Assembly: GCF_037042905.1 (NCBI RefSeq)
Contig: NC_087250.1
Coordinates: forward strand, 14,696,001 to 14,760,000
Origin: Lytechinus pictus
Taxonomy: Eukaryota
Length of the DNA stretch: 64,000 bases
Direction of reading: 5' to 3'
This document shows positions 44,401-63,534 of the stretch, piece after piece; position 1 is the stretch's first letter, and every line of letters starts with the position of its first letter. The notes beneath the pieces are model-generated. The model was given only the letters and a program-made list of their open reading frames with translations. It was not told the origin of the DNA and did no database searches. A program made the position numbers and the translations under genes.

Positions 44401-47400
44401 TGCATTTTGTATTTTTCCATTGCACGGTACGCGCGCTAGCGCTCGCTCAGTATAATCCTTGTATGTCTACTTATTGTGTATGTGTGTGTGTGTGTTCGCG
44501 CGCATGAAGTTAGCGCAGATCAAACTGACTGTGCGCACTCGACTCAGATCCATGAAGCAATGCGCGTCACAAACATGAAAGCAAAGGGCTGATGAGCTGT
44601 CGATACATGGTGTTATCCACCGACTAGCAATTATCAGAGAAAAATTAGTTGCTGGAAATAGGCCAACCTAATCTTTATCTTGTTATTCCTTTTTTTTACA
44701 TTTTAAAAAACTTTGTAACTTATATGAGTTATATAAAACAAATAATGAATGCAAATATTTGTGCAATGGAAAGAATATTTACATTCGATGAAAGATTAAA
44801 AGTTCCATTCAACTCGGCTAACGCCTCGTTGAATGGAACTTTACATCTTTCATCTCATGAAAATATTCTTCCCATTGCACGCATACACATTCATTATTTG
44901 TATACTATGATATGTTGTAGTATCTATTGTGCAGTGTAATTAATTGTTAATTTCAACTGGCATTCTCTTTTGACAAATCATTTTCTGTTTTATCAAAAAT
45001 ATAATTTCTGAGTTTCCTTTTTTCATGGGAGCACACTACATGTAAATCTACACTGTACTTTAAAGAGAAATTCCAGTAGTTACAGTAAACACTGATTTCA
45101 TGAGAAAGTCTGTAAAACAAGGCTTAATTGTCAGTATATCATCGAGGATCTAGATCTGGTACAGTTACATAAACTGAACTTCGTGAAATCTTGAAATCTA
45201 CGCTGAAAAATGTTCAGACTGAAGATCCCCAACACAGATAAGCGCACGTGGGACAGTGTATAATTATTGCTTTGCATGTCGGGCCCGACGCTCTACCCGA
45301 ATCCTGTGCTTATTTGCTGATTTCTCAGCAATTACACAATTTCTTCCAGAATCCTTTGGCACATACGTTTTATTTATACAAACAGACACCTTATTTTTTG
45401 GTGGTCATTTCATTGGATTCTGTACGAACTCATTTTGATATCGTTACCAAAACTAGCATTTACCTTTAATACTTGTACATGTTTATAATTACAGTTATAA
45501 CTGAATTGCTATGTTTGAGTTGATTTTTAACCTTTATGATCAATGCAGATCATGAATTGTGTCTGGTTAATTTTTCACCCTTCAAATAGAAAAGGGGAAA
45601 GAGAAAAAAGAATTAACAGGGAGAGTGATCATGAATATTAATGTATCATAAATTAATAATGATTCACAATCATATTTTATATACTATTCAACAGAAAGTG
45701 CATATCAATAATTCATTTGTTATTTTTCATTTCTTCTCTTTTCTTCAGACTGCTCAAAATCGTTTATTGATCAAGGGAGGCAAGGTTGTGAATAGCGATC
45801 AATCGTTCTACGCTGACGTTTACACCGAAGATGGCATTATTCGGTAAGACATTTTCTTTCTTTTTTAATCCAGAAGCATGTTCAGATACCATTATAAATC
45901 TATGTACAGCCTTATGCTGATAGACACACACATAAAAACGATGAAAATAAAACTGAATTTGAAAATTCTTCAACTACATGTAGATTAGTGAGAAAAACTG
46001 AGGGTAACCCCCCCCCCCGCGCCCTTAAGAAGCTGCTATTATTACTACACGTTTTCTAGATATTCTTGTTGCAACCTTTGCCAAAATTCAACCCAAATAT
46101 TATAGTTACCCCTCCCCCTAAAAATGTAAATTAATGAGTAAAATAAATAAGTATAAATCCAGATTAATTTCCAGTATGAATGACCCTTCTCATTTGATGC
46201 ATCTGCAGGTATTAAAGTTGGCAAGGGCCTCATCACACCAGGAGGTGCCAAAGTATTACAGTAGATACTCTGAATTTTTTATATGAATGAATGTCTATGC
46301 CCTGCTAATTTTACAAAAAAAAAACATTATACCAATATAAATAAAGATTAGTTTCTAGTATGAATGACCCCCTCTCATTCAATGCATCTACAGGCAAGTT
46401 GGCAAGGACCTCATCACACCAGGAGGTGCCAAGGTATTGGATGCCAAGGGCAAGCTTATTATACCTGGTGGTATTGACACACACACCCACATGCAGCTTC
46501 CATTCATGGGAACCTGTGCCATAGATGACTTCTACCAAGGCACCAAGGCTGCTCTCGCTGGCGGAACTACCATGATCAGTAAGTGGTATTATGATCTTCA
46601 AGTTGGCAATACCAGTATAGTGATTAAGGAATAAAAGGGAAAATTATAATAAAAGATAATAATATAGTTTCAGTGATATTGTGCACTGATATGTCATAAC
46701 AATGTGTTTACTTGCTAGGGAAATTCCATAATCAATAAGTTTTATTATGGTCTTCAAATTGGCAATGTAGGAATAAAGGAATTAGAGGCAGAAGCAAAGT
46801 GATCACAAAAATTCTAGTGGTGTTGTGCACTGACATGTTGTAAGACTTCTTGCCCAAAGGGAAATACCATGATCGTTAAGTGTATTATGATCTTCAAGTT
46901 GGCAATATATAAATGAAGAAATAGGCAGAATTAAAGTAACAATGAAATTCTATGACCGGAAGAAATCTTGCCCTAAGAGAAATACCTGATCTCTAAAAGG
47001 TATTATGATCTTAAAATTGGCAATACAGGAATATAAAGGTAATGTGATAAAAGTTCCAGTAATATTTTACACTCAAATGTCGTAAGTTTGTACATGTACG
47101 TGCAAATACTGTGCCTGCGCTGACCCTAAGGTCTGCCGTGATTTGTAGTATTCCATTTTTCATCGATTTGATTTCCTGTTTAGTTGATATTGCCAAACTG
47201 TGAAGGTTCTTTTACCAAGACTTCTGACCAATAGCATGCCTGGATTGACCCTAAGGTCTGCTGTGACCACTCCCTTTACATTGATAACTCACGAAGTCAC
47301 AGAATGTTCATAGTTGTACCTGTTTCATCTATGTTGATTTCCTTTTCTGCAGTTGACCACTGCCTACCGGTCAAAGGCCACTTCTGGTCAAAGCCTTTGA

Positions 47401-63534: not shown

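What the first reader, a model, noticed from the sequence alone, without database searches (positions are those of the whole stretch)
45749..63534. One protein combines an intact dihydropyrimidinase active site with CRMP-type termini and CRMP-like exon structure
Seen: all metal ligands are present (H-x-H in DTHTH, Lys in NSFK, His in VHAEN and VHVMS, Asp in GTDNC). The tail reads [17 protein letters not shown]...[11 protein letters not shown], its last part encoded by a distant exon the ORF track misses. Known (recalled): vertebrate DPYS is catalytic but lacks this tail, while vertebrate CRMP1-5 have the tail but lost ligands. Exon sizes 185/165/62/81/69/121/157/142 match what I recall for DPYSL2, whose 171- and 180-nt exons are here split 84+87 and 93+87. 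The Cdk5/GSK3 S/T-P cluster of CRMP2 is absent. Inference: a still-catalytic CRMP-lineage or pre-split bifunctional enzyme/cytoskeletal regulator.
Basis: partly seen in the sequence, partly recalled or inferred. Interest (0 to 1): 0.7.

Follow-up and report, generated by a model that had tools for sequence, protein, structure and literature searches.

The report
Sea urchin dihydropyrimidinase/CRMP ancestral-type gene
This is an ordinary sea urchin gene for the pyrimidine-degrading enzyme dihydropyrimidinase: its CRMP-like tail is an old feature shared by most animal versions of the enzyme, though it seems to lack the enzyme-off alternative exon that starfish, brittle stars and feather stars have.

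Summary
There are 15 canonical exons, a 566-aa frame and all six metal ligands. RNA reads join exon 14 to 63446 (68/75/44 reads). The protein body matches a RefSeq Lytechinus pictus dihydropyrimidinase-like protein exactly.

The combination is not special. 71 of the 120 best homologs have intact ligands plus the PPGG tail, including Nematostella, amphioxus, tunicates, molluscs, arthropods, and sturgeon and tarpon DPYS. Trees place it among echinoderms; grouping with chordate CRMPs is rejected (p-AU 0.010). 'Pre-split' fits; 'CRMP-lineage' does not.

The long one carries, twice, a motif shared with vertebrate CRMP1 long isoforms. Seven relatives have isoform pairs that swap the His-243 exon for a Lys/Arg exon, as in fly CRMP; no such exon was found here. 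The scan noted that switch before, in an arthropod (e1-7708340).

Best reading: a catalytic dihydropyrimidinase that kept ancestral ends. A cytoskeletal second job is possible but untested.

The parts
1788..2441 (+). Long alternative first coding exon (218 aa, phase-0 GT donor); gives a 784-aa isoform if joined to 45749; low complexity, 9 S/T-P sites
   Evidence: 99.5% identical to the N-terminus of L. pictus XP_054757190.1, 86% to S. purpuratus 787 aa, 70% to Diadema 786 aa; donor; S/T-P sites. The join was not tested by reads.
1848..1913 (+). Copy 1 of a ~20-aa motif (S-M-F-x-x-V-x-G-G-G-N-S-L-x-F) related to a motif in vertebrate CRMP1 long N-termini
2133..2198 (+). Copy 2 of the same motif
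14921..14956 (+). Short alternative first coding exon (12 aa, phase-0 GT donor); gives a 578-aa isoform
   Evidence: 12 of 12 residues identical to the N-termini of S. purpuratus, L. variegatus and Diadema models; the same 12 aa begin isoforms of starfish, brittle star (1 change), crinoids and sea cucumber
45749..45843 (+).
46394..46578 (+). Exon, 185 nt; His-x-His ligands H62 and H64
47526..47690 (+). Exon, 165 nt
48415..48476 (+). Exon, 62 nt; bridging Lys154
50346..50426 (+). Exon, 81 nt; His187
51801..51869 (+). Exon, 69 nt
52040..52206 (+). Recent, broken tandem copy of the intron end plus 5' half of the next exon (92% alike, frameshifted, ends before the His codon); not an alternative exon
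52315..52435 (+). Exon, 121 nt; His243. This is the exon that is mutually exclusive (His vs Lys/Arg) in other echinoderms, a hemichordate and a brachiopod; only the His form was found here
53093..53249 (+). Exon, 157 nt
53765..53906 (+). Exon, 142 nt; Asp321
54395..54478 (+). Exon, 84 nt
55002..55088 (+). Exon, 87 nt
55390..55482 (+). Exon, 93 nt
55894..55980 (+). Exon, 87 nt; last helix (H19 equivalent). Its 3' intron matches the position of human DPYS intron 8
   Evidence: its join to 56889 is seen as loose read ends
56889..57072 (+). Exon, 184 nt; tail with no S/T-P site, first tail motif at 57039-57072
63446..63534 (+). Last coding exon, 89 nt; PPGG motif at 63499-63510 and stop; 3' UTR follows
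   Evidence: join 57072->63446 in 68/75/44 reads and one contig

Best explanation
This is the sea urchin (Lytechinus) representative of the undivided animal DHP/CRMP gene. Its product is a binuclear-zinc dihydropyrimidinase. Four His, one Asp and a carboxylated Lys hold two metals that activate water to open dihydrouracil or dihydrothymine, the second step of reductive pyrimidine breakdown (ligands shown; chemistry and tetramer inferred from human and fish DHP).

The C-terminal tail, the intron-rich layout and the long/short first-exon choice are old features of the family. CRMPs kept them, and most vertebrate DPYS genes later lost the tail. Many bilaterians make a non-catalytic CRMP-like form by swapping one His-bearing exon. 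This locus has only the His exon, so every isoform it can make is enzyme-competent.
For: Six of six ligands are present and align with human DHP. The best PDB matches are human and fish DHP (784 and 777 bits) before CRMP1/2 (747, 746). The 566-aa body is identical to RefSeq XP_063957069.1. Transcription and tail splicing are shown. 71 of 120 top homologs have ligands plus the PPGG tail, from Nematostella to sturgeon. The protein falls in echinoderms then Ambulacraria (100/99, 99/97), and AU tests reject grouping with CRMPs (p 0.010) or with chordate DHPs alone (p 0.006). Isoform pairs differ only within this 40-aa exon in 7 of 7 species examined. An HMM of the Lys/Arg exons finds only the His exon and its broken copy in the window. 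The fly gene works as dihydropyrimidinase through its His exon (PMC8652244 and PMC3650022, passages).
Against: No activity was measured. The same tree rejects deuterostome monophyly (p-AU 0.036), so deep branches may be distorted by rate differences or hidden paralogy, and FastTree with divergent rows places CRMP1-4 and CRMP5 differently. The mixture-model 'careful' tree did not finish. No named CRMP2, human DPYS, UNC-33, DHP-1/2 or fly protein was in the trees. The 120 hits include isoforms and close relatives, so 71 is not a count of independent lineages. A second, divergent paralog elsewhere in the urchin genome could not be searched for (no genome held).
Confidence: 0.85

Rival explanations
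1. Moonlighting. Having lost the enzyme-off exon, sea urchins use this catalytically intact protein, above all the long isoform, also for the CRMP job of binding tubulin or microtubules in neurons through helix H19 and the tail. This adds to the best explanation rather than excluding it.
For: The tail motifs are conserved from Nematostella to CRMP1 and CRMP5. The tail mediates lattice binding in CRMP2 (PMC5587665, passages), and the C-terminus binds microtubules in UNC-33L (PMC7159925, passages). The tail is net basic (14 K+R vs 9 D+E). The long first exon shares a motif with CRMP1 long forms (14-18 bits vs a best shuffle of 7.8 in 600). No Lys exon appears in the window or in the 9 full-length urchin models from 3 genera (1 further model is aberrant there).
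Against: The tail is also kept in sturgeon and tarpon DPYS, species whose relatives have separate CRMP genes, so it may serve another purpose; its proximal part is a tetramer interface. The tail has no S/T-P site, against 3-4 in CRMP1 and CRMP5. Of CRMP2's five basic H19 residues three are basic here, while human DPYS keeps all five, so H19 does not discriminate. In flies the His isoform is non-neuronal. No binding or expression data.
Confidence: 0.3
2. A still-catalytic member of the CRMP lineage proper, i.e. closer to DPYSL1-5 than DPYS is.
Against: AU tests reject it (p 0.010 and 0.002). Identity is higher to DPYS. The tail and the N-terminal motif also occur in molluscs, a brachiopod, a priapulid and crustaceans, so they are shared ancestral traits.
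Confidence: 0.05
3. The locus does have a fly-type enzyme/CRMP switch, but the Lys exon is missing from this assembly or too diverged to be seen.
For: The switch exists in asteroids, an ophiuroid, crinoids, a hemichordate and a brachiopod. An older L. pictus model is aberrant at this exon. Both flanking introns hold tandem repeats.
Against: The window has no N. Of the 7 open AG..GT frames of 112-133 nt between 50427 and 53764, only the His exon resembles the family, and the HMM finds nothing else. No listed urchin or Apostichopus model has a Lys form.
Confidence: 0.07

Closest known systems
Drosophila CRMP gene (FBgn0023023; exons 9a/9b; Morris et al. 2012, seen only through PMC8652244, PMC7954323, PMC3650022 and bioRxiv 10.1101/292813 passages)
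   Same: A single undivided gene; the His-bearing form is the dihydropyrimidinase. Crustacean isoforms switch the same His position as the echinoderm pairs.
   Different: No second, His-less exon was found at this locus. In crustaceans the swapped stretch starts about 15 residues later. The fly sequence itself was not compared.
Vertebrate dihydropyrimidinase DPYS (EC 3.5.2.2; PDB 2vr2, 4h00)
   Same: All six ligands; 68-70% core identity; best PDB match; one intron position shown to be shared; sturgeon and tarpon DPYS also carry the tail.
   Different: Human and amphibian DPYS end before the tail. Human DPYS has 10 exons, with an intron before residue 413 that is absent here. No long first exon was seen in the DPYS hits. 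The tree does not make this a DPYS-only ortholog (p-AU 0.006).
Vertebrate CRMP1-5 (DPYSL family)
   Same: Tail motifs; long and short first-exon isoforms; N-terminal motif shared with CRMP1 long forms; exon sizes (recalled).
   Different: CRMPs lack ligands (CRMP1 N-Y-Q-H-K-G, CRMP5 S-H-Q-H-N-D at the six sites). They have tail S/T-P sites that are absent here, and they belong to a different clade.
C. elegans CeCRMP/DHP-1 and DHP-2 (Takemoto et al. 2000; seen only as a cited title and passage in PMC7396159)
   Same: The idea of an invertebrate DHP resembling the common ancestor of CRMP and DHP is already in that paper's title.
   Different: Nematodes have separate genes, including UNC-33. Their sequences were not compared by name here.

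Membership tests
Dihydropyrimidinase (cyclic amidohydrolase) | Amidohydrolase domain | tested here: met
   PF01979, 84 bits vs cutoff 25
Dihydropyrimidinase (cyclic amidohydrolase) | Six binuclear-metal ligands H,H,K,H,H,D | tested here: met
Dihydropyrimidinase (cyclic amidohydrolase) | Core closer to DHPs than to CRMPs, allantoinase or dihydroorotase | tested here: met
   68-70% vs 56-62%; PDB ranking
Dihydropyrimidinase (cyclic amidohydrolase) | Lys carboxylation and dihydrouracil hydrolysis | not testable with these tools
   needs an assay
CRMP/DPYSL family | Loss of metal ligands | tested here: not met
   all six present
CRMP/DPYSL family | Groups with chordate CRMPs | tested here: not met
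   p-AU 0.010 and 0.002; caveat on deep branches
CRMP/DPYSL family | C-terminal tail motifs | tested here: met
   not diagnostic (71 of 120 homologs have ligands plus tail)
CRMP/DPYSL family | Cdk5/GSK3 S/T-P cluster in the tail | tested here: not met
   0 sites in 90 aa
CRMP/DPYSL family | Basic helix H19 for tubulin binding | tested here: inconclusive
   3 of 5 basic positions; human DPYS keeps 5 of 5
CRMP/DPYSL family | Long and short first-exon isoforms | tested here: met
   both exons are in the window and in urchin gene models; joins not read-tested
CRMP/DPYSL family | DPYSL2 exon sizes | not testable with these tools
   recalled only; no vertebrate genomic DNA; the search found no table
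CRMP/DPYSL family | Neuronal expression and microtubule binding | not testable with these tools
   none
Fly-type splice-switch DHP/CRMP gene | Pair of mutually exclusive exons, His vs non-His | tested here: not met
   only the His exon plus a broken recent copy
Fly-type splice-switch DHP/CRMP gene | Single gene in the genome | not testable with these tools
   no genome held; two 577-aa S. purpuratus records and two further Amphiura paralogs exist

The most novel reading that the evidence does not exclude
The bilaterian ancestor had one DHP/CRMP gene with an enzyme-off exon switch and a long first exon bearing a conserved ~20-aa motif. Chordates turned the switch into separate genes, while sea urchins (and perhaps sea cucumbers) lost the enzyme-off exon. 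One catalytically intact protein would then have to do the CRMP cytoskeletal work, making it a true enzyme/microtubule-regulator moonlighter and a natural test of whether CRMP function needs loss of catalysis.
Probability: 0.25. Interest if true: 0.55.

Novelty: new member of a known kind. Interest (0 to 1): 0.22.

Why it matters
As flagged, it matters little: catalytic site plus tail is the default state of animal DHP/CRMP proteins, and the gene is already annotated. Three by-products are more useful: (1) the fly-type His/Lys exon switch is visible in echinoderm, hemichordate and brachiopod gene models, which points to a bilaterian origin; (2) urchins seem to have lost it; (3) the long CRMP N-terminus holds a motif conserved from molluscs to vertebrates. 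Together they make a tractable embryo model for asking whether an active enzyme can do CRMP's neuronal job, and what the long N-terminus binds.

Tried and rejected
Search for the first exon with recalled insect-type motifs found nothing real; homolog N-termini then located both exons.

The N-terminal 36 aa of RefSeq XP_063957069.1 are a read-through of the intron just before 45749 (45641-45748). Judged a model artefact; not read-tested.

The 39-nt cassette 58766-58804, present in one L. variegatus model, had no joint listed in 4 runs, and its bin had mean depth 0, 0 and 1 in the three read runs. Rejected as a main exon.

Partial exon copies at 46215-46257, 47105-47461, 52040-52206 and 53992-54084 are local tandem duplications with stops or frameshifts, not alternative exons.

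The urchin His exon shares two residues (positions 6-7) with echinoderm Lys exons, but overall sides with His exons (9-13 vs 3-6 diagnostic sites in five echinoderms). A chimaeric origin is not claimed.

The ESM Atlas gave no usable hit for the long exon, and Pfam none. Ten other long ORFs had 0 Pfam hits. The run finder listed no holder on record as RNA; the raw-read runs were laid instead. The mixture-model careful tree did not finish in two runs; 10 of 54 rows were left out there and 24 of 54, for speed and to remove long or mis-modelled rows. No whole genome was held, so no paralog search was possible. Morris et al. 2012 could not be read. Nine literature searches listed no title on the sea urchin gene, on the exon switch in deuterostomes or on the N-terminal motif; most listed papers were not opened and subscription journals are largely missing. 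No structure or complex prediction was run. Supplements were not consulted.

Full report
1. Observation. Fifteen exons from 45749 to 63534, with AG acceptors and GT donors, have sizes 95/185/165/62/81/69/121/157/142/84/87/93/87/184/89 and give one 566-residue frame. The six metal ligands lie at 46482, 46488, 48429, 50397, 52384 and 53790 and align with those of human dihydropyrimidinase, PDB 2vr2. On 56300-64000, three RNA runs (about 6 in 100 of each read) gave 68, 75 and 44 reads joining 57072 to 63446, and a contig of a fourth run did too; the four runs come from two studies. Loose read ends before 56889 match the preceding exon. The 90-residue tail has no S/T-P site.

2. Identity and missing parts. 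The 566 residues occur letter for letter in RefSeq XP_063957069.1, a Lytechinus pictus 'dihydropyrimidinase-like' protein. They are 99% identical to L. variegatus, 92% to Strongylocentrotus and 87% to Diadema. A 654-nt coding exon at 1788-2441 and a 36-nt one at 14921-14956 both end in phase-0 GT donors that fit the acceptor at 45749. Gene models of three urchin genera use both kinds of start. I did not test these two joins with reads. The contig extends 997 nt upstream of 45749, which fits either exon plus UTR.

3. Is the combination unusual? No. A search with the L. variegatus protein scored 8000 candidates and listed the best 120. Of these 120, 97 have all six ligands, 93 have the terminal PPGG motif and 71 have both. 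The set includes the window's own protein and several isoforms per species, so these are not independent lineages. Named carriers of both include Nematostella, amphioxus, two tunicates, hemichordates, other echinoderms, molluscs, annelids, a priapulid and arthropods. Among the 17 named vertebrate DPYS in the list, sturgeon and tarpon keep the whole tail, coelacanth, bowfin and gar end in or just after its first motif, and 12 lack it. The simplest reading (inference) is that the tail is ancestral and was lost in most vertebrate DPYS genes. The exon layout is also not a CRMP mark. Human DPYS intron 8 follows residue 481 (PMC4730329, abstract and passages), which aligns to the 55980|56889 intron here. 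Human intron 7, before residue 413, has no counterpart.

4. Phylogeny. On 30 rows and 486 core columns (IQ-TREE, LG+G4) the protein sits with Diadema (100/100), in echinoderms (100/99) and in Ambulacraria (99/97). Chordate DHPs and CRMPs form one side of a branch (95/95). AU tests reject Ambulacraria+CRMP (p 0.010), urchins+CRMP (0.002) and Ambulacraria+chordate DHP (0.006). Against over-reading: deuterostome monophyly is also rejected (0.036). A quick mixture-model tree of 44 rows agrees on the echinoderm placement, but its careful version did not finish. FastTree with 99 rows moves the CRMP clades while keeping the window in echinoderms at 99. No named CRMP2, human DPYS, fly or C. elegans protein was available. 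Amphioxus and Clavelina each have a ligand-intact and a ligand-lacking gene, which fits a split within chordates. Core identity is 68-70% to DPYS and 56-62% to CRMPs. So 'pre-split' holds and 'CRMP lineage' does not.

5. The exon switch. In 7 of 7 species examined (Acanthaster, Asterias, Amphiura, Anneissia, Antedon, Ptychodera, Lingula), pairs of annotated isoforms are identical except within the 40 residues of the exon at 52315-52435. One form has the ligand His, the other Lys or Arg, as vertebrate CRMP1 does. Crustacean isoforms switch the same His. This is the design described for Drosophila CRMP, where the exon-9a form keeps a His, catabolises pyrimidines and is non-neuronal, and the 9b form is neuronal and inactive. 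I saw this only as passages in PMC8652244, PMC7954323, PMC3650022 and bioRxiv 10.1101/292813; the primary paper was not held. My recall is that it extends the design to other protostomes. An earlier finding of this scan reported the same switch in an arthropod (e1-7708340). In this window an HMM of the Lys/Arg exons finds only the His exon and a recent, frameshifted partial copy at 52040-52206. Of 7 open AG..GT frames of matching size between 50427 and 53764, only the His exon resembles the family. Nine of the ten full-length urchin models in hand have the His exon and one older model is aberrant there; 5 of 5 Apostichopus models have His. Loss in urchins is therefore likely but rests on one locus and on annotations.

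6. The long first exon. It is low in complexity, has no Pfam or Atlas match and holds 9 S/T-P sites, three of them S-P-x-K/R. It carries two copies of a motif, S-M-F-x-x-V-x-G-G-G-N-S-L-x-F (1848-1913, 2133-2198). A profile built from 20 invertebrate instances, picked by pattern and by eye, scored three vertebrate CRMP1-type long N-termini at 14.3-17.7 bits, amphioxus CRMP-like at 15.6 and a locust protein at 10.8. The best of 600 shuffles scored 7.8. The other 14 of the 19 test sequences, including CRMP3 and CRMP5 rows with doubtful N-termini and unnamed UNC-33-like proteins, scored 1.4 or less. The motif was defined after looking at the data, so this is a lead. PMC7159925 (passages) shows that UNC-33L anchors through its N-terminus and calls that region non-conserved, consistent with the lack of a hit there.

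7. Mechanism. Shown: an expressed, correctly spliced gene with a complete binuclear site. Inferred from the family: a zinc-dependent homotetramer that opens dihydrouracil and dihydrothymine in pyrimidine catabolism (0.85). Inferred and untested: a second, cytoskeletal role (0.3). For it: the conserved, net-basic tail, which binds the microtubule lattice in CRMP2 (PMC5587665, passages), the long isoform with its motif, and the missing enzyme-off exon. Against it: no tail phosphorylation cluster, retention of the tail in some fish DPYS, a structural role of the proximal tail in the tetramer, a non-diagnostic helix H19, and the possibility of an unseen paralog.

8. Verdict. The finding is real and well read, but ordinary in the respect flagged: a new member of a known kind, already annotated, with the ancestor idea in print since Takemoto et al. 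2000 (cited title and passage in PMC7396159). Nine searches listed no title on the urchin gene, on the deuterostome exon switch or on the N-terminal motif; that library lacks most subscription papers. PMC8131560 was seen as passages only. Interest 0.22. The bolder reading, one active enzyme doing CRMP's job after loss of the switch, has probability about 0.25 and would deserve 0.55.

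Noticed in passing
   Followed up: yes
P0019/P0135, P0020/P0143, P0021/P0148, P0024/P0165, P0025/P0167, P0023/P0149, P0046/P0184: Mutually exclusive His vs Lys/Arg exon in starfish, brittle star, crinoids, a hemichordate and a brachiopod, matching window exon 52315-52435.
   Followed up: yes
P0071, P0096 (also P0113, P0125, P0128): Sturgeon and tarpon DPYS keep the full CRMP-type tail; coelacanth, bowfin and gar models keep part of it.
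   Followed up: partly
window 46152-46257, 46715-47033, 47105-47491, 52040-52206, 52446-52959, 53992-54084: Many exon edges have decayed local tandem copies of about 120-185 nt, some with a duplicated acceptor or donor.
   Followed up: partly
window 58766-58804: In-frame 39-nt AG..GT cassette used in one L. variegatus model; no joint seen in 4 runs.
   Followed up: yes
window 45641-45748: The current RefSeq L. pictus model starts by translating the intron end instead of using either upstream exon; probably a model error.
   Followed up: partly
window 51272-51619, 55491-55810, 55989-56178: Long ATC/GAT triplet arrays (117, 106 and 60 copies) in introns.
   Followed up: no
window about 56650-56720, 59070-59310 and 60885-61030: Intronic interspersed repeats that attract reads from elsewhere, on both strands for the latter two.
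   Followed up: no
   Followed up: no
window 52315-52435: The urchin His exon has Val-Asn at positions 6-7, like echinoderm Lys exons, while His exons nearly always have Thr at position 6 (80 of 93 distinct His exons); possibly old gene conversion.
   Followed up: partly
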